Source: a virus (lineage: Duplodnaviria > Heunggongvirae > Uroviricota > Caudoviricetes). From it: a stretch of 42,839 nt of DNA. The notes under the pieces are model-generated. The model was not told the DNA's origin and did not search any database. It was given only the letters and a program-made list of their open reading frames with translations. Numbering within the stretch: position 1 is the stretch's first letter; each line of letters starts with the position of its first letter. The stretch covers positions 1 to 42,839 of IMG/VR virus record IMGVR_UViG_2565956731_000005; one strand, written 5' to 3'. The position numbers and the translations under genes are program-made. Positions 6,065-37,508 of this stretch are shown here, piece by piece.

Positions 6065-6081
6065 ATTACCTTTCAGGTAAT
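6065..6081. promoter_or_regulatory. 17-bp palindromic operator ATTACCTTTCAGGTAAT
   Basis: Perfect inverted repeat ATTACC-N5-GGTAAT; one of 12 copies of the same motif found at promoter regions in this window. Confidence 0.6.
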
Positions 6082-6117: not shown

Positions 6118-6137
6118 TACTGTATAAATATACAGTT
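6118..6137. promoter_or_regulatory. LexA (SOS) box TACTGTATAAATATACAGTT
   Basis: CTGT-N8-ACAG with an all-A/T spacer and TA flanks, 18/20 match to the Enterobacterial consensus TACTGTATATATATACAGTA; about 20 bp upstream of the start of the small gene at 6158. Confidence 0.75.
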
Positions 6138-6157
6138 ATTGCATGGAGAAGATTAAG

Positions 6158-6415
6158 ATGCAGCAGTATCACTATCCACTGGAAGACGGATTTACCGAAA
6201 GGATTCACACGCCGGGAGGCGTCAGGTCACTGGTGGAGGGATCGCACTTGATGAAATTACTCCGGGATCTCGATAAGGATGGATTTAATGTCGATGGCCC
6301 ACTTGCCGAACTGACTGCACTGATTAACTACGTCACCAGCTCACAGATGTCTATGCAGGATCTGCAAACACATCTCGACTATTGTGCCGAACAATTACGA
6401 AAACAAACCCGGTAA
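6158..6415 (+). CDS. Small KilAC-like protein, paralogous to the Ant C-terminal domain; candidate SOS-induced antirepressor
   Basis: RBS GGAG 9 nt upstream of the ATG at 6158 (track start 6143 lacks an RBS). Protein aligns with the C-terminus of the Bro-N protein at 7564..8274 (YxxPLxxG…IHxPxGV…LMxLL…DGxxVxGxxAELT…QTH). Confidence 0.5.
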   Translation: MQQYHYPLEDGFTERIHTPGGVRSLVEGSHLMKLLRDLDKDGFNVDGPLAELTALINYVTSSQMSMQDLQTHLDYCAEQLRKQTR

Positions 6416-6421
6416 ATTTAA

Positions 6422-6439
6422 AGGCCGCAAGAGCGGCCT
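6422..6439. terminator. Hairpin between convergent genes (bidirectional terminator candidate)
   Basis: AGGCCGC-AAGA-GCGGCCT stem-loop in the 22-bp gap between convergent genes 6158..6415 and 6438..7166; T-rich on the minus side. Confidence 0.5.
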
Positions 6440-7166
6440 ATCGTTTCGCTTTGTGCTCATCCCAGCACGTTTTGCACCATGCCATTAATCCGTCCGCATT
6501 TTGATTATTAGGGTAAAAGCTGGTTCGTTTTCTGCGGACATTACAAATTGGGCACCACTTCATATGGCGTGTATTCTTTGGGCCATCGAGACACCTTGCA
6601 CACCACTTAGTCAATCCATCTGGATTTTTTGACGATTTCCTGAATTTTTCATATGGTAGGTTTATTCTGCATCGCAAGCACTGCTTGCTACCACTTGAAA
6701 CTCTGTTAGCTGATTCTTCTTTTGGCGGCGATACAGAAGGTATTCTTGCTGGCTCTGATACTGCCTGAGGTGCTTTTTTAGATGACTGAGACGATATGTC
6801 ATCACCAGGGAATCTTCCATGATATGCCGGACGCGTTGACACTCCAGGTGGAAGCTCAGCTGTAAACGGCTTTGGCTGAATCAGTTGCCTCTCTTTTGCT
6901 AACTCCTGCTGTTTATAATATGTCTGGATTACCGCACTATCATAAGCAGGAGGTGCGGAAATATTAGGCGCATTACCTCCAGTTTTTTGAAACTGAGTAG
7001 AGGTGTGTTCTATCACCTGTGTACGATTAATCGTTATCTCCCCATCTTCGGTCTTTATCGTTTTGTTATGATTAACGACCGTACGATCAGAGATCTTAGT
7101 CTTGTTCTGGTTGATAACGTAAATAATCACCGCAACCACACCAACAACTATCCAGAAAACTTCCAT
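6438..7166 (-). CDS. Membrane-anchored protein with tandem C-terminal zinc-ribbon repeats, function unknown
   Basis: N-terminal transmembrane helix (FWIVVGVVAVIIYVI), Pro/Ser-rich linker, then CLRC…DGLTKWCARC…WCPIC…DGLMAWCKTC (two xDGLxxWCxxC repeats plus extra CxxC). RBS GAGGAAAA upstream; operator 20 bp upstream. Confidence 0.6.
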   Translation of the reverse strand: MEVFWIVVGVVAVIIYVINQNKTKISDRTVVNHNKTIKTEDGEITINRTQVIEHTSTQFQKTGGNAPNISAPPAYDSAVIQTYYKQQELAKERQLIQPKPFTAELPPGVSTRPAYHGRFPGDDISSQSSKKAPQAVSEPARIPSVSPPKEESANRVSSGSKQCLRCRINLPYEKFRKSSKNPDGLTKWCARCLDGPKNTRHMKWCPICNVRRKRTSFYPNNQNADGLMAWCKTCWDEHKAKR

Positions 7167-7185
7167 TGCTTTTCCTCACAATAAC

Positions 7186-7202
7186 ATTACCTTAAAGGTA
7201 AT
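7186..7202. promoter_or_regulatory. 17-bp palindromic operator ATTACCTTAAAGGTAAT
   Basis: Perfect inverted repeat in the divergent promoter region between 6438..7166 and ant. Confidence 0.6.
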
Positions 7203-7250
7203 ATCTTGCTTTCAGGTGATCAAGCGTTAAACGCAATCAACCAAATACGG

Positions 7251-7295
7251 TTGATTTTAATATTTCTTCGCGTTTATCATTACCTTTGCGGTAAA
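7251..7295 (+). promoter_or_regulatory. Candidate sigma70 promoter (TTGATT-N18-TATCAT) overlapped by operator ATTACCTTTGCGGTAAA
   Basis: -35/-10-like hexamers with 18-bp spacing; operator copy at 7279..7295 overlaps the -10/+1 region; points toward ant. Confidence 0.4.
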
Positions 7296-7385
7296 TTTAC
7301 ATCGCACTCCTCTTGTGCCATAGTAATCGGGTACTGGCAAAATCCAGTGCCGGGATTGGCGTCCCGAGTTACTAAGTGGCGCATA

Positions 7386-7407
7386 CCACGCCAGACGTGG
7401 TTTTTTT
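7386..7407 (+). terminator. Rho-independent terminator in the ant leader
   Basis: CCACG-CCAGA-CGTGG hairpin followed by TTTTTTT, about 155 bp upstream of the ant start codon. Confidence 0.65.
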
Positions 7408-7563
7408 ATGCGTTAAGCACAGCTATATCCGAATTATGGTGGGCTGGGCAGGGGTCCGAAAGGACGCCGGTACCACTTAGGCCGGTACGCCAACCTTGTC
7501 CAGTTCACCACCAGTAATTGGCGTTGCGGTGGTGATTAAAATCACTAAGTGGAGATAACCACC

Positions 7564-8274
7564 ATGGCTAATGCTCAAACTGCCATCTTCAAATTTGAAT
7601 CTGTTAACCCTATCCGTTCCATCATTATCGATGGCCAACCATGGTTTGTAGCCCAAGACGTTTGTAGTGCGCTGCGTATCCAAAACGTCACCCAAGCACT
7701 TGAAAAACTGGATGATGATGAAAGGTCTATGTTCAACATAGGGCATGAACATCGTGCAATTTTTGACAGCCGAGTAAAAGAGATCAACATCATCTCCGAG
7801 TCAGGCCTCTACACACTGATCCTCCGCTGCCGCGATGCGGTGACACCAGGCACTATCCCCTACCGCTTTCGTAAATGGGTTACAGGTGAGGTTCTTCCTC
7901 AGATCCGCCGCACCGGAAGTTACATTAAAAACTCGCTCCCGCAGGAAGAACGCATAAAGATGGTTGCCGACCAGGTAGCCAACGCCACGGCGTCAGCAGT
8001 AATGCAGGCGATGAAGATAGAGAACAAAACCTACAGTGCCCCACTGAAGCCCGGCTACCGCAGTCTGATTCATTCTCCGTCTGGTGTTCTCGGCCTGACG
8101 GAGAACTCACTGCTGATGAATTTGCTGAACCAGTTACAGGAAGACGGGCACGACGTATCGGGCGCGGCGGCGGAGCTGACCACCATGTTCTGCTACATCG
8201 TCGGTGTGAGTAAATGCCTGCGTGATATCCAGACCCACGCGGAGTACATCAACGACAAGGCAGGGTTCTTCTGA
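7564..8274 (+). CDS. ant: Antirepressor Ant (Bro-N domain plus KilAC-like C-terminal domain)
   Basis: Bro-N signature (AIFKFESVNPIRSIIIDGQPWFVAQDVCSAL…YRFRKWVTGEVLPQIRRTGSY); RBS GGAG 9 nt upstream of the ATG at 7564. Confidence 0.85.
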   Translation: MANAQTAIFKFESVNPIRSIIIDGQPWFVAQDVCSALRIQNVTQALEKLDDDERSMFNIGHEHRAIFDSRVKEINIISESGLYTLILRCRDAVTPGTIPYRFRKWVTGEVLPQIRRTGSYIKNSLPQEERIKMVADQVANATASAVMQAMKIENKTYSAPLKPGYRSLIHSPSGVLGLTENSLLMNLLNQLQEDGHDVSGAAAELTTMFCYIVGVSKCLRDIQTHAEYINDKAGFF

Positions 8275-8343
8275 CGGCGGCGGCACAGGGATGTGCCTTT
8301 AAATAATTCTGTACGATTGCAGACTGTGGGTGAATAGCGTACT

Positions 8344-8360
8344 ATTACCTCAAGGGTAAA
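8344..8360. promoter_or_regulatory. Operator-like palindrome ATTACCTCAAGGGTAAA
   Basis: Motif copy about 60 bp upstream of the small ORF at 8420. Confidence 0.5.
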
Positions 8361-8419
8361 CGGATTGGTTTCATTTTTATTAATCCGTGTAATGAACTTA
8401 TGAGATATGAGGTAATGTC

Positions 8420-8599
8420 ATGCGAAACGAAAAATTGCAGATGCGTAGAGCGCAAGCTGCCGCAAGACGTTCTTTCAATGGAAGCGTAGAGTACGTAAAA
8501 GTTACTATGACAAAAGATCACGCAAGTCGCGTATCCCGCGCTTTCTTTGATTCTCGTAACAATAAGGAAAATTATGAGTTCGTCTGCGTCGCAGAATGA
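8420..8599 (+). CDS. Small basic protein (59 aa), possible ribbon-helix-helix antitoxin/regulator
   Basis: Below the ORF-track size cutoff. RBS GAGG 8 nt upstream; overlaps the start of the downstream gene by 26 bp (operon-coupled). VKVTMTKDHASRVSRAFF is consistent with a beta-strand plus helix DNA-binding fold. Confidence 0.35.
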   Translation: MRNEKLQMRRAQAAARRSFNGSVEYVKVTMTKDHASRVSRAFFDSRNNKENYEFVCVAE

Positions 8600-9119
8600 T
8601 AAAAATCAAATTGTCAGATATAAGGGTCGAGTATTGCATACGCAAAATTTCTCGGCCCTTTGTGCATCTGATCTTGAGCTGAAGAAAGTATCTGATGCCT
8701 TTACCCAGTATTGGAAAACGGGATACCATCCATCTCTTGGTAAAGATGCTGCATTTGCTCGTCCGACAGAAATGCTTAAACTAAATGTCAGGCATACTCA
8801 TGTCGATAACCAAGACTATATTCCAGAAGATAGTGATAAAAAACACACTGGTAAAAAATCATCTTGGGATGCATGGAAAAATATAGCGTCTGTACAAGTA
8901 AAATGCATACCAACAAGTGATTGCTTTTTAGTTTATTCGGTAAATCACAATCGTGATGCGCTGGTTATGTTTTTTGTTGACGCAGATGCCCACAACATAA
9001 CTGAGCAAGAAGAGTTTAAAGAGGCAGCAATCACTATCAGTTATCAATTCTTTGAGAAAACAAAAACAGAACCAATGCCTTTAGAAGAAGATCTTTTTTC
9101 TGATAAATGGAAGGAATAA
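8574..9119 (+). CDS. YafO-like protein (putative toxin / mRNA interferase family), product uncertain
   Basis: RBS AAGGAAA upstream of the ATG at 8574. Central region (GKDAAF…NVRHTHV…TSDCFLVYS…ALVMFFVDADAH) resembles YafO-family toxins as recalled; AT-rich relative to neighbours. Confidence 0.45.
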   Translation: MSSSASQNDKNQIVRYKGRVLHTQNFSALCASDLELKKVSDAFTQYWKTGYHPSLGKDAAFARPTEMLKLNVRHTHVDNQDYIPEDSDKKHTGKKSSWDAWKNIASVQVKCIPTSDCFLVYSVNHNRDALVMFFVDADAHNITEQEEFKEAAITISYQFFEKTKTEPMPLEEDLFSDKWKE

Positions 9120-25442: not shown

Positions 25443-25459
25443 ATTACCTTCCAGGTAAG
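25443..25459. promoter_or_regulatory. Operator-like palindrome ATTACCTTCCAGGTAAG, with TTGACA at 25422..25427
   Basis: Motif copy downstream of a consensus -35 hexamer; points rightward toward the tRNA. Confidence 0.45.
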
Positions 25460-25780: not shown

Positions 25781-25857
25781 GTGGCATTAGCTCAGTTGGA
25801 CAGAGCAACCGCCTTCTAAGCGGTTGGTCGCAGGTTCGAATCCTGCATGCCACGCCA
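25781..25857 (+). tRNA. tRNA-Arg (anticodon UCU), CCA end encoded
   Basis: Cloverleaf folded by hand: acceptor GTGGCAT/ATGCCAC, D-arm GCTC-AGTTGGACA-GAGC, anticodon stem ACCGC/GCGGT with loop CTTCTAA, T-arm GCAGG-TTCGAAT-CCTGC, discriminator G then CCA. Resembles argU. Confidence 0.9.
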
Positions 25858-36923: not shown

Positions 36924-37508
36924 ATGAAAAGTATCCAGGACGTCCGCAGGCAAAATCTCAACGACTTGATCGACCGTGAATTCAATGGTGTTCAGACGCG
37001 GATGGCTGAAAAACTTGGAACTCAGGCAAATCTGGTAAACCGCTGGGCTCTTGGCAAGAAGGTTATCGGCGACCAGGTTGCACGAAAAATTGAAGCTGCC
37101 GCCAATAAACCCCGTAACTGGCTTGATATCGATCGCTCGCTTTCTCAGGAAGGTTTTCAGCCTGTCGGCCCAAGCGACATTGGCCAGCTGGCGGCTCACA
37201 ACCTGGAACGCTGGATGAGCGAAAGCCGCGACCTTTCAACACAGGGAAAACTTCACCGCGCATCCGGCGTAGCCCAGGTGACAATCAGCCGCCTGTTAAA
37301 CAATGAGGTCAGCGTTTCCATTTCCACCCTGGAGAATGTTGCATCCGCATTCGGGCGTCACGGCTATGAATTACTGATTCACCCGCACGACCCTGCGACC
37401 ATCAACTATGACCGCTCGCGCTACGCATTGTTACCCGAAACCGAGAAAGCAAAGATCGAAAGTTACATTGAATTTGTCATCAACCAGAACGAAAAAAACA
37501 AACAATAA
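36924..37508 (+). CDS. Prophage repressor, tandem HTH (XRE-type), no S24 peptidase domain
   Basis: Two HTH-like segments (QTRMAEKLGTQANLVNRWALGKK and LHRASGVAQVTISRLLNN); C-terminus shows no Ser/Lys autocleavage motif; divergent from the Cro-like gene; followed by a terminator. Confidence 0.7.
   Translation: MKSIQDVRRQNLNDLIDREFNGVQTRMAEKLGTQANLVNRWALGKKVIGDQVARKIEAAANKPRNWLDIDRSLSQEGFQPVGPSDIGQLAAHNLERWMSESRDLSTQGKLHRASGVAQVTISRLLNNEVSVSISTLENVASAFGRHGYELLIHPHDPATINYDRSRYALLPETEKAKIESYIEFVINQNEKNKQ

What the first reader, a model, noticed from the sequence alone, without database searches (positions are those of the whole stretch)
6438..7166. Membrane-anchored protein with duplicated DGL-x2-WC-x2-C zinc-ribbon repeats at the P22 sieA/mnt-equivalent position
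The protein has a single N-terminal transmembrane helix, a Pro/Ser-rich linker and a C-terminal Cys-rich domain made of two similar repeats (KNPDGLTKWCARC and QNADGLMAWCKTC) plus further CxxC pairs. I do not recognise this architecture as a characterised family. It is divergently transcribed from ant and shares the operator-bearing promoter region. A role in superinfection exclusion or in membrane sequestration of a regulator is plausible but untested.
Basis: partly seen in the sequence, partly recalled or inferred. Interest (0 to 1): 0.55.

Follow-up and report, generated by a model that had tools for sequence, protein, structure and literature searches.

The report
Membrane-tethered zinc-finger phage accessory protein
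An optional prophage gene encodes an inner-membrane-anchored protein that hangs two zinc fingers, of the kind usually attached to DNA-cutting and DNA-unwinding enzymes, into the cytoplasm; the family is real, uncharacterised and sits next to phage immunity genes, so it is most plausibly a phage-exclusion or DNA-tethering factor, but no function has been shown.

Summary
It has one N-terminal transmembrane helix, a conserved beta-hairpin, a disordered Pro/Ser/Gln linker and two Cys4 fingers (CxxC-x22-CxxC).

- **Family:** uncharacterised (phrog_6762, no curated Pfam or NCBIfam family). About 50 clusters at 50% identity keep this architecture.
- **Topology:** all members are predicted N-out/C-in.
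- **Fingers:** Stc1-type (PF12898; Foldseek to PDB 2LUY). This is the accessory module of viral HNH/EndoVII nucleases and of helicases, here without any nuclease motif. Net charge is +14.
- **Phage:** epsilon15/SPC32H-like, not P22-like.
- **Cassette:** the gene is an ~860-bp moron-like insertion with its own terminator and promoter. It lies between the SOS-controlled SPC32H-type ant and an isrK-C4-BRO-N ant module. It occurs in 129 of 324-537 related E. coli prophages.
- **Regulation:** the -10 lies inside a perfect Rep operator, so it is probably silent in the stable lysogen.
- **Distant homologues:** they lie directly downstream of cI-type repressor genes, once followed by a secreted SNase.
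- **Known exclusion proteins:** no similarity to SieA or Mnt.

Best guess (about 0.35): phage-phage interference by capturing nucleic acid at the cytoplasmic face of the inner membrane. The function is untested. Interest is moderate.

The parts
6438..7166 (-). CDS, 242 aa, uncharacterised family (phrog_6762)
   Evidence: ORF list. Full-length phrog_6762 match, E=1e-150. 33 and then 63 homologues. pN/pS 0.03-0.33.
7107..7160 (-). N-terminal transmembrane anchor (residues 3-20), predicted N-out/C-in
   Evidence: AF2 helix 3-20. It is the only hydrophobic segment. All 60 family members of at least 160 aa that were scanned have 0 K/R before it and 2-5 K/R in the next 15 residues.
7005..7088 (-). 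Conserved juxtamembrane beta-hairpin (residues 27-54, TIKTEDGEIxIxRT motif)
   Evidence: AF2 strands 27-39 and 42-54, pLDDT about 75. T39, G42 and E43 are invariant or nearly invariant.
6693..7004 (-). Variable, mostly disordered Pro/Ser/Gln-rich linker (residues 55-158), with one predicted helix at 77-93
   Evidence: pLDDT below 50 for 53-73, 112-138 and 148-153. In-frame indels between homologues. Composition.
6582..6686 (-). Zinc finger 1 (residues 161-195; C163, C166, C189, C192)
   Evidence: pLDDT above 93. Invariant Cys. Matches endonuclease VII phrog_1035 at 142-192, Stc1 at 161-193 and the PacI N-terminus.
6453..6560 (-). Zinc finger 2 (residues 203-238; C205, C208, C231, C234)
   Evidence: pLDDT above 93. 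Matches phrog_2633, phrog_5558 and phrog_2255 at 197-242. 33% identical to finger 1.
6422..6439 (.). GC-rich hairpin terminator between the convergent target and small ant genes; it overlaps the target stop codon
   Evidence: Terminator scan: 7-bp stem, 6 GC pairs, T-rich tail on the minus strand. Sequence.
7173..7177 (-). Shine-Dalgarno GAGGA, 6 nt upstream of the ATG
   Evidence: Read from the sequence.
7195..7223 (-). Putative sigma-70 promoter: -35 TTGATC (7223-7218), 17-nt spacer, -10 TACCTT (7200-7195)
   Evidence: Read from the sequence; it falls below the scanner's threshold. The same TTGAnC-N17-TACCTT geometry is kept in Serratia, Citrobacter-type and L073 loci despite divergent spacers, and as TTGAAC-N17-TAACCT in Providencia. 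It also occurs at the window 25443 operator and leftward of epsilon15 site 2931. The stretch is nearly invariant in 38 E. coli variants.
7186..7202 (.). Operator O1, perfect palindrome ATTACCTTAAAGGTAAT, overlapping the -10
   Evidence: 15 sites in the window against 1.2 expected. The same motif is annotated as repressor binding sites in the epsilon15 record. The repressor gene 36924..37508 matches SPC32H Rep, PDB 5D50_A.
6416..7278 (.). Extent of the moron-like cassette (terminator + CDS + promoter/O1), absent from related prophages
   Evidence: E. coli ECONIH2 prophage has the small ant stop, 35 nt, operator O2 and then isrK, with nothing in between. In the sampled listing, most matches to the isrK-C4-ant module in other E. 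coli genomes begin at window ~7270-7280.

Best explanation
**Shown by sequence or tools**
- The gene is an optional, self-contained cassette with its own promoter, operator and terminator. It sits in the accessory immunity island of an epsilon15/SPC32H-like prophage.
- It encodes a single-pass inner-membrane protein.
- Its C-terminus is a confidently folded, strongly basic (net +14) pair of Cys4 Stc1-type zinc fingers. This module is otherwise attached to viral HNH/EndoVII nucleases and to helicases. Here it carries no catalytic motif.

**Inferred**
- The N-terminus faces the periplasm. The hairpin, the roughly 100-residue flexible linker and the fingers are cytoplasmic.
- The fingers bind zinc, and they bind nucleic acid or a DNA-bound protein.
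- Transcription comes from a sigma-70 promoter whose -10 lies inside a Rep operator. In this phage the protein would then be made when Rep is absent or inactivated (fresh infection or induction). In lambdoid relatives it would be made with cI.

**Proposed mechanism (hypothesis)**
- The protein acts as a membrane-tethered 'fishing line'. It captures DNA of a competing phage, or the cytoplasmic end of its entry machinery, at the inner face of the membrane and so interferes with superinfection.
- This would be exclusion, possibly followed by degradation where a periplasmic nuclease is co-encoded.
For: **Architecture and topology:**

**Finger identity**
- Pfam Stc1: 21 bits for this protein, below the 24.8-bit cut-off; the relative P0041 reaches 25.0, and multi-finger relatives reach 34-61 bits.
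- Foldseek to Stc1 structure 2LUY: E=5e-3, probability 0.87.
- 36 BFVD matches at E<=1e-3, many of them named HNH, beta-beta-alpha-Me or EndoVII endonucleases.
- PHROG endonuclease VII and HNH families.
- Fusions to ResIII/DEAD and SF1 helicases.
- Net charge +14.

**Accessory, moron-like nature**
- Present in 129 E. coli genomes, against 324 with the adjacent ejection-protein gene and 537 with the same repressor.
- Clean indel relative to ECONIH2.
- Absent from epsilon15.
- Own terminator.

**Immunity-region linkage across lineages**
- Beside ant and isrK-C4 modules in the window, in the Serratia loci and in 7 of 12 other diverse loci.
- Directly downstream of cI-type repressor genes in Aeromonas phiARM81mr, Acinetobacter and the P0046 and P0049 lineages (S24-type where domains were scored). 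Convergent with one in the P0047 lineage.
- In the P0049 lineage, a signal-peptide SNase+Excalibur gene overlaps the 3' end of the homologue.
- Neighbouring slots in many loci hold apparent lipoproteins or small membrane proteins, judged by eye from N-terminal sequences.

**Precedent:** SieA-type exclusion acts at the inner membrane, and sieA occupies the equivalent slot in P22-like phages (PMC10883804).
Against: - No experiment exists, and no homology to any characterised exclusion or defence protein was found (PADLOC: none; SieA: none).
- In this phage the operator overlaps the -10. The gene should therefore be repressed in the lysogen, unlike classical prophage exclusion genes.
- A cytoplasm-facing domain cannot directly block periplasmic steps of DNA entry.
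- Stc1's own tandem finger is a protein-binding module (my own knowledge of the 2LUY work). The ligand could therefore be a protein rather than DNA.
- The SNase association occurs in only one lineage.
- Topology and zinc binding are predictions.
Confidence: 0.35

Rival explanations
1. Early lytic-cycle helper. The protein tethers the phage's own DNA (incoming, replicating or packaging substrate) to the inner membrane, as phi29 p16.7 does, or protects DNA ends there.
For: - The Rep operator over the -10 puts the gene in the same regulatory class as the other Rep-controlled lytic units, with the same promoter geometry as at window 25443 and epsilon15 site 2931.
- The tandem finger is basic and of the type attached to nucleic-acid enzymes.
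- The TM + spacer + DNA-binding-domain layout resembles p16.7 (my own knowledge).
Against: - The gene is dispensable. It is absent from epsilon15, from all other phage records except TL-2011b, YeP4-6 and phiARM81mr, and from about 60% of closely related E. coli prophages.
- In lambdoid relatives it lies in the cI operon and is therefore probably lysogen-expressed.
Confidence: 0.15
2. Abortive-infection sensor-effector in one polypeptide. Finger binding to foreign DNA or replication intermediates clusters the TM helices and hairpins and damages the membrane. This would be a Rex-like logic without a separate channel protein.
For: - The position downstream of cI matches that of lambda rexAB (rexAB position from my own knowledge).
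- The conserved juxtamembrane hairpin could mediate oligomerisation.
- The neighbourhood holds toxin-type genes: YafO-like in the window and PIN in L096.
Against: - A single TM helix with a 2-residue periplasmic end is a poor pore former.
- There is no PADLOC match.
- Nothing here separates this reading from simple exclusion.
Confidence: 0.12
3. Immunity-switch modulator. The protein sequesters or presents a regulator (Ant, Rep/CI, LexA/RecA or an RNA) at the membrane and so tunes induction or the lysis-lysogeny decision.
For: - The gene is always next to ant or repressor genes. In the window it is wedged between two ant genes and shares the operator-bearing spacer.
- O1 and O2 are 93 bp apart centre to centre, about 9 helical turns, so the cassette may also add a cooperative operator to the ant promoter (inference).
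- Stc1-type fingers can be protein-binding (my own knowledge).
Against: - The partner regulators differ between lineages: SPC32H-type Rep with small, BRO-N or KilA-N Ants in some, S24 CI in others. A conserved protein partner is therefore unlikely.
- The gene is absent from most phages that use the same Rep/Ant switch.
Confidence: 0.12
4. Membrane-bound nuclease: a cryptic HNH / beta-beta-alpha-Me enzyme that cuts DNA at the membrane.
Against: - The matches cover only the non-catalytic Cys4 modules.
- There is no Pfam HNH or Endonuclease_7 hit.
- No His/Asn catalytic pattern is conserved. H201 is only nearly invariant among the close homologues and is missing in the Acinetobacter and P0032 homologues.
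Confidence: 0.03

Closest known systems
Stc1-type tandem zinc finger (Pfam PF12898; PDB 2LUY) as found in viral HNH / EndoVII / beta-beta-alpha-Me endonucleases and helicases
   Same: - Two consecutive Cys4 units with the pattern CxxC-(~22)-DG-x3-WCxxC.
- Best PDB fold match and 36 BFVD matches.
- Stc1 HMM hits above threshold in relatives and in multi-finger proteins.
   Different: - No enzyme domain is attached.
- The module is hung on a membrane anchor through a long disordered linker.
- The window protein itself scores 21 bits, below the 24.8-bit Pfam cut-off.
P22 SieA (inner-membrane superinfection exclusion protein)
   Same: - Inner-membrane protein encoded by an optional gene with its own promoter.
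- Located in the accessory island between the ejection-protein genes and the tailspike gene, beside ant (PMC10883804).
   Different: - SieA is 162-164 aa with three TM segments and the motif FxRYPxEAxxFNK, and it is prophage-expressed.
- The target has one TM, no such motif, zinc fingers and no sequence similarity.
- The target's promoter carries a repressor operator.
phi29 p16.7 (membrane-anchored DNA-binding protein organising phage replication); comparison from my own knowledge
   Same: N-terminal membrane anchor, spacer, C-terminal nucleic-acid-binding domain; an early phage gene.
   Different: - Different fold: p16.7 has a helical dimeric domain rather than zinc fingers.
- Gram-positive phage.
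- p16.7 aids replication, whereas the target is an optional accessory gene. Sequence relationship was not tested here.
ZipA-like bitopic topology (N-out anchor, charged segment, P/Q-rich tether, cytoplasmic globular domain)
   Same: The overall layout is the same. One homologue (P0045) carries the automatic JGI name 'FtsZ-interacting cell division protein ZipA'.
   Different: There is no ZipA C-terminal domain (no Pfam hit). The resemblance is architectural only.
Genes carried in cI operons of lambdoid phages (e.g. lambda rexAB); comparison from my own knowledge
   Same: Distant homologues lie 18-54 nt downstream of cI-type repressor genes on the same strand.
   Different: There is no sequence relationship. 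In the window's phage the gene is not in the repressor operon and appears to be repressor-controlled.

Membership tests
phrog_6762 (uncharacterised phage protein family) | Full-length HMM match | tested here: met
   E=1.1e-150, residues 1-242 on profile positions 1-242 of 242.
Stc1 domain (Pfam PF12898) | HMM score at or above the gathering cut-off (24.8 bits) | tested here: inconclusive
   The window protein scores 21 bits, E=5e-4, below the cut-off. Homologue P0041 scores 25.0, P0036 scores 24.7, and multi-finger relatives score 34-61 bits.
Stc1 domain (Pfam PF12898) | Tandem Cys4 zinc-finger fold as in PDB 2LUY | tested here: met
   Top Foldseek PDB hit is 2LUY, E=5.2e-3, probability 0.87. 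The C-terminal domain is modelled at pLDDT above 90. The score is modest.
HNH / Endonuclease VII (beta-beta-alpha-Me nucleases) | Catalytic His-Asn-His/Asn motif and a match to the nuclease HMM | tested here: not met
   No Pfam HNH or Endonuclease_7 hit at E<=10. PHROG, PacI and Hpy99I matches cover only the Cys4 modules. No conserved catalytic His/Asn pattern in the alignment.
P22 SieA superinfection exclusion family | About 160-200 aa with three or four TM segments | tested here: not met
   One hydrophobic segment only. SieA features are taken from PMC10883804.
P22 SieA superinfection exclusion family | Conserved motif FxRYPxEAxxFNK and sequence similarity to SieA types A-C | tested here: not met
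   Motif absent. BLASTP against P22 SieA finds no meaningful alignment; the best local match is 7 residues, E=0.23. Types B and C were not compared.
P22 Mnt / Arc-type ribbon-helix-helix repressors | Sequence similarity to Mnt | tested here: not met
   BLASTP E=0.07, 19% identity over a low-complexity stretch.
Moron (independent accessory transcription unit in a prophage) | Own promoter and terminator, with presence/absence polymorphism that has clean boundaries among related phages | tested here: met
   Terminator. Conserved promoter geometry. Indel relative to ECONIH2 and to epsilon15. Present in 129 of 324-537 related prophages. Classical morons are lysogen-expressed; that is doubtful here because of operator O1.
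Known anti-phage defence systems (PADLOC-DB v2) | Match to any defence-protein HMM | tested here: not met
   No family at E<=1.
Zinc-binding protein | Stoichiometric zinc bound by the eight Cys | not testable with these tools
   Only the invariant CxxC pairs and the fold prediction are available.
Rep-regulated gene of epsilon15/SPC32H-type phages | Rep operator (ATTACC-N5-GGTAAT) overlapping the core promoter | tested here: met
   A perfect site at 7186-7202 overlaps the putative -10. The motif equals the epsilon15 record's annotated repressor sites. Actual binding and repression were not tested.

The most novel reading that the evidence does not exclude
A previously undescribed class of single-polypeptide phage-interference factor. 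The proposal is an inner-membrane anchor carrying a nuclease-less, homing-endonuclease-type tandem zinc finger on a flexible tether. It would seize incoming foreign DNA, or the cytoplasmic tip of the injection conduit, at the inner face of the membrane. It would be deployed by podoviruses during lytic growth and by lambdoid phages from the cI operon. In some phages it would work with a secreted nuclease that destroys the stalled DNA.
Probability: 0.2. Interest if true: 0.7.

Novelty: new variant of a known kind. Interest (0 to 1): 0.42.

Why it matters
If the protein does interfere with other phages, it would add a mechanistically distinct exclusion or defence module: a DNA-enzyme accessory zinc finger repurposed as a membrane-tethered trap. 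No current defence-system model recognises it. It is present in about 2% of complete E. coli genomes (129 of 5426) and in prophages of several other Enterobacterales genera, Aeromonas and Acinetobacter.

If instead it is an early lytic helper or a switch modulator, it would add a new component to the SPC32H-type Rep/Ant circuit.

Either way the gene is small, self-contained and easy to test. The regulatory contrast is a concrete question: it appears Rep-repressed here but co-transcribed with cI elsewhere.

Tried and rejected
**Searches that led nowhere or failed**
- Pfam, NCBIfam and PADLOC scans gave no family above threshold.
- A PDB sequence search gave only a weak PacI N-terminal match, E=0.11.
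- Foldseek against afdb50 was not available.
- Full-text searches for the operator string, for 'Stc1 domain' with phage, and for zinc-ribbon exclusion proteins found nothing. TL-2011b papers say nothing about this gene.
- The SPC32H and epsilon15 primary papers are not held. Their content is cited through the PDB hits, the epsilon15 record and review PMC7380047.
- A search with only the N-terminal TM+hairpin module found only truncated copies of the same family, so no other C-terminal domains are seen on this anchor.

**Ideas tested and rejected**
- A P22-like identity for the phage. The virion genes and the Rep/Ant pair are epsilon15/SPC32H-type.
- SieA or Mnt homology.
- A nuclease function, because no catalytic motif is present.
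- A LexA box at the target promoter. The only convincing LexA box, judged by sequence and position, is at the small ant gene.
- An activator (PRM-like) geometry for O1. The operator centre is only 28 nt from the ATG, so it cannot lie at -41.5 of any promoter that serves this ORF.

**Left unresolved**
- 'Faint' precomputed PF27269 (YonG_N) hits on distant homologues could not be evaluated. That model is not in the local Pfam copy.
Full report
**1.

The window has an ATG-initiated ORF at exactly 6438..7166 on the minus strand, 242 aa. It is preceded by GAGGA 6 nt upstream of the ATG. It ends in a GC-rich hairpin (6422-6439) that it shares with the convergent upstream gene.

- **Anchor.** A single hydrophobic helix spans residues 3-20.
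- **Hairpin.** A conserved beta-hairpin spans 27-54.
- **Linker.** A variable, largely disordered linker runs from about 55 to 158. The stretch 61-158 has 14 Pro and 13 Ser in 98 residues.
- **Cys-rich C-terminus.** An 84-residue C-terminus holds eight Cys arranged as two CxxC-x22-CxxC units that end in DGLTKWCARC and DGLMAWCKTC. The two units are 33% identical to each other.

The gene is under purifying selection: pN/pS is 0.03-0.33 among 37 E. coli alleles. Between genera the two ends are conserved while the linker changes by in-frame indels.

**2. What the protein is**

- **No curated family covers it.** It matches phrog_6762 ('unknown function') end to end. Pfam gives only a sub-threshold Stc1 hit. 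NCBIfam and PADLOC give nothing. RefSeq calls it 'hypothetical protein'.
- **The C-terminal domain folds with confidence.** AlphaFold2 with the family alignment models it at pLDDT above 90 as two small strand-plus-helix zinc-finger units.
- **Fold and sequence neighbours.** Its best PDB fold match is the tandem zinc finger of S. pombe Stc1 (2LUY, E=5e-3, probability 0.87). Against predicted viral structures it has 36 matches at E<=1e-3. Many of these are named HNH, beta-beta-alpha-Me or EndoVII endonucleases, or are unnamed Zn-finger proteins. This agrees with the PHROG hits and with a weak PacI N-terminus hit.
- **Wider distribution of the finger.** An exhaustive profile search of 1.84 billion representatives found 1681 proteins at E<=1e-3. 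About 50 clusters of 165-240 aa match over the full length. The rest carry 2-10 copies of the finger. Those that were scanned score 34-61 bits on Pfam Stc1 or are fused to ResIII/DEAD or SF1 helicase domains.
- **Probably not an enzyme.** The finger is a recurrent accessory module of nucleic-acid enzymes. Here no HNH or Endonuclease_7 model matches and no catalytic His/Asn pattern is conserved.
- **Charge.** The domain has net charge +14.
- **Topology.** All 60 scanned members have no Lys or Arg before the helix and 2-5 in the 15 residues after it. By the positive-inside rule the fingers are cytoplasmic, as expected for Cys4 zinc sites.
- **Overall picture.** The protein is a nuclease-less, strongly basic tandem finger held at the cytoplasmic face of the inner membrane by a flexible tether. 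The architecture and fold are predictions with good support. Zinc binding, nucleic-acid binding and topology are inferred.

**3. Where it sits**

The element is not P22-like.
- **Relatives.** The nearest phage is TL-2011b (97.8% identity).
- **Virion genes.** The gene order follows epsilon15, and RefSeq annotates a T7 gp14-family core protein among the virion genes.
- **Repressor.** The repressor (36924..37508, HTH_3, no S24 domain) matches SPC32H Rep (PDB 5D50_A, E=4e-42).
- **Small antirepressor.** The 90-aa ORF at 6143..6415, convergent with the target, is the SPC32H antirepressor (5D50_E, E=4e-47) and is 84% identical to epsilon15 gp19. It has a canonical LexA box at 6119-6138. Review PMC7380047 states that in this phage type Ant is made on LexA cleavage and inactivates the repressor.
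- **Second antirepressor.** It is preceded by Rfam isrK (7331-7407) and C4 antisense RNA (7432-7515). By my own knowledge this resembles the P1 immI layout.

The target is therefore wedged between two antirepressor units.

**4. The gene is a discrete, optional cassette**

- It is in 129 of 5426 complete E. coli genomes. The adjacent ejection-protein gene is in 324 and the same repressor is in 537.
- In prophages without it, the small ant stop codon is followed after 35 nt by operator O2 and isrK. ECONIH2 is the example examined.
- In the sampled listing, most matches of the isrK-C4-ant module in other genomes start at window ~7270-7280.
- About 860 bp (6416-7278: terminator, CDS, promoter and operator) thus behave as one indel.
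- Epsilon15 lacks the whole island.

**5. Regulation**

- **The operator motif.** The palindrome ATTACC-N5-GGTAAT occurs 15 times in the window (<=2 mismatches; 1.2 expected). It is the motif that the epsilon15 record annotates as repressor binding sites.
- **Site O1.** A perfect copy (7186-7202) lies 20-36 nt upstream of the ATG.
- **The promoter.** On the coding strand the sequence reads TTGATC-N17-TACCTT, with the -10 inside the operator.
- **Conservation of the geometry.** It recurs, with divergent spacers, in Serratia (TTGAAC-N17-TACCTT), in Citrobacter/Enterobacter-type loci (TTGACC-N17-TACCTT) and in L073. In Providencia-type loci both the -10 and the palindrome change together (TAACCT within ATTAACC-N5-GGTTAAT), and that palindrome recurs elsewhere in the locus.
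- **Same design elsewhere in these phages.** It is seen at window site 25443 and leftward of epsilon15 site 2931.
- **Constraint.** Across 38 E. coli upstream variants the -35-to-ATG stretch is almost invariant while the sequence further upstream varies.

I infer a Rep-repressed promoter: off in the stable lysogen, on after infection or induction. The site and its conservation are shown. Binding and repression are not.

**6. Context in distant relatives**

- Homologues at 26-36% identity keep the architecture.
- They lie immediately downstream of cI-type repressor genes on the same strand in several lineages: Aeromonas phiARM81mr (18-nt gap), an Acinetobacter prophage (54 nt, containing a hairpin), the P0046 lineage (34 nt) and the P0049 lineage (18 nt with a Shine-Dalgarno sequence). 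In the P0047 lineage they are tail-to-tail with an S24 repressor gene.
- In the P0049 lineage the next gene overlaps the 3' end of the homologue and encodes an SNase+Excalibur nuclease whose N-terminus reads as a signal peptide.
- In the P0060 lineage the homologue has one finger only. It is flanked by a small secreted Excalibur-like protein and a polytopic membrane protein, followed by KilA-N and PIN genes.
- In epsilon15-like loci the gene accompanies ant modules. An isrK-C4 module lies within about 2.5 kb in the window, in the Serratia loci and in 7 of 12 further diverse loci. Adjacent slots often hold apparent lipoproteins or small membrane proteins, judged by eye from their N-terminal sequences.

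**7. Interpretation**

- **What the data point to.** The accessory nature, the immunity-region linkage, the envelope-protein neighbours and the one nuclease partner all point to phage-phage interference. That is also the role of sieA, which occupies the equivalent slot of P22-like phages and acts at the inner membrane (PMC10883804).
- **It is not a SieA.** It has one TM rather than three, lacks the FxRYPxEAxxFNK motif, and shows no similarity to SieA or Mnt.
- **Proposed mechanism.** The cytoplasmic, basic, DNA-enzyme-type fingers on a long tether suggest capture of nucleic acid, or of a DNA-associated protein, at the inner face of the membrane.
- **The weak point.** The Rep operator implies expression during lytic growth rather than in the lysogen. 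Exclusion by early lytic genes has precedent (T4 imm, my own knowledge), but this equally fits a lytic helper that tethers the phage's own DNA, in the manner of phi29 p16.7.
- **Confidence.** Interference is about 0.35. Rivals are a lytic DNA tether (0.15), an abortive-infection sensor-effector (0.12), an immunity-switch modulator (0.12) and a cryptic nuclease (0.03). The remainder is 'something else'.

**8. Novelty and score**

The finger is a known kind of module. Tethering it to the membrane without an enzyme, in an immunity-linked moron, has no description that I could find in the curated libraries or the literature searched. I rate it a new variant of a known kind.

The gene is a good and cheap experimental target. 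It is also one of very many uncharacterised phage accessory proteins, and nothing here is strongly surprising. Interest is 0.42.

Noticed in passing
window 6143-6415 (+), with 6065-6081 and 6119-6138: The small ORF convergent with the target is the SPC32H-type antirepressor (PDB 5D50_E, E=4e-47; 84% identical to epsilon15 gp19). A perfect Rep operator (6065) and a canonical LexA box (TACTGTATAAATATACAGTT) lie upstream of it. This, and not the BRO-N gene, is the SOS-linked ant of this phage type.
   Followed up: yes
window 7331-7407 and 7432-7515 (+): Rfam isrK (63.5 bits) and C4 antisense RNA (66 bits) lie in tandem directly upstream of the BRO-N antirepressor gene, in a P1 immI-like arrangement. 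The same isrK-C4-ant module occurs in Serratia, Citrobacter-type, Providencia-type and Morganella-type loci.
   Followed up: partly
window 7549-8274 (+): The C-terminal ~80 residues of the BRO-N protein are 42% identical to the small SPC32H-type Ant. It looks like a BRO-N fusion of the antirepressor domain, which would give the prophage two differently controlled antirepressors.
   Followed up: partly
window, 15 sites (e.g. 6065, 7186, 7279, 8344, 25443, 30507, 30525, 34460, 34522, 36853, 37565, 37627): The Rep operator ATTACC-N5-GGTAAT is dispersed over the genome at many transcription units, as in the epsilon15 record. O1 (7186) and O2 (7279) are 93 bp apart centre to centre, so the target cassette may add a cooperative or looping operator next to the isrK-ant promoter.
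   Followed up: partly
window 8547-9119 (+): A YafO-toxin-like ORF (Pfam 25.8 bits against a 25-bit cut-off) follows the BRO-N gene, with a Rep operator at 8344. No antitoxin partner was looked for.
   Followed up: no
window 7224-7256: Two further small palindromes lie between O1 and O2, just upstream of the target's -35: GCGTTTAACGC and AATCAACC-N6-GGTTGATT. Citrobacter-type loci (L066-L071) instead carry TGTGACATGTCACA at the same place. These may be sites for a second regulator.
   Followed up: no
L093-L095, 7654-8307: In one lambdoid lineage the homologue is followed, with overlapping ends, by an SNase + Excalibur nuclease gene whose product has an apparent signal peptide. The order is S24 cI, then the target homologue, then the nuclease.
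   Followed up: partly
L003 1987-2634 (Yersinia phage YeP5): The YeP5 homologue has a (TK)8 dipeptide repeat directly after the membrane anchor, so the juxtamembrane basic segment can be expanded.
   Followed up: no
proteins P0089, P0098, P0101, P0103, P0110, P0137: The same finger occurs in arrays of up to 10 copies in long proteins. Some of these are fused to ResIII/DEAD or SF1 helicase domains or to HEAT repeats. This is a large, essentially unstudied class of prokaryotic or viral poly-Stc1-finger proteins.
   Followed up: partly
window 25781-25857 (+): A tRNA-Arg(TCT) gene lies inside the prophage. It is downstream of a TTGACA-N17-TACCTT promoter whose -10 is embedded in the Rep operator at 25443.
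   Followed up: no
L001 (TL-2011b record JQ011317) 7641-8729: The TL-2011b GenBank record marks this gene only as a 1089-nt misc_feature 'similar to hypothetical protein', not as a CDS, although the 242-codon ORF is intact there.
   Followed up: partly
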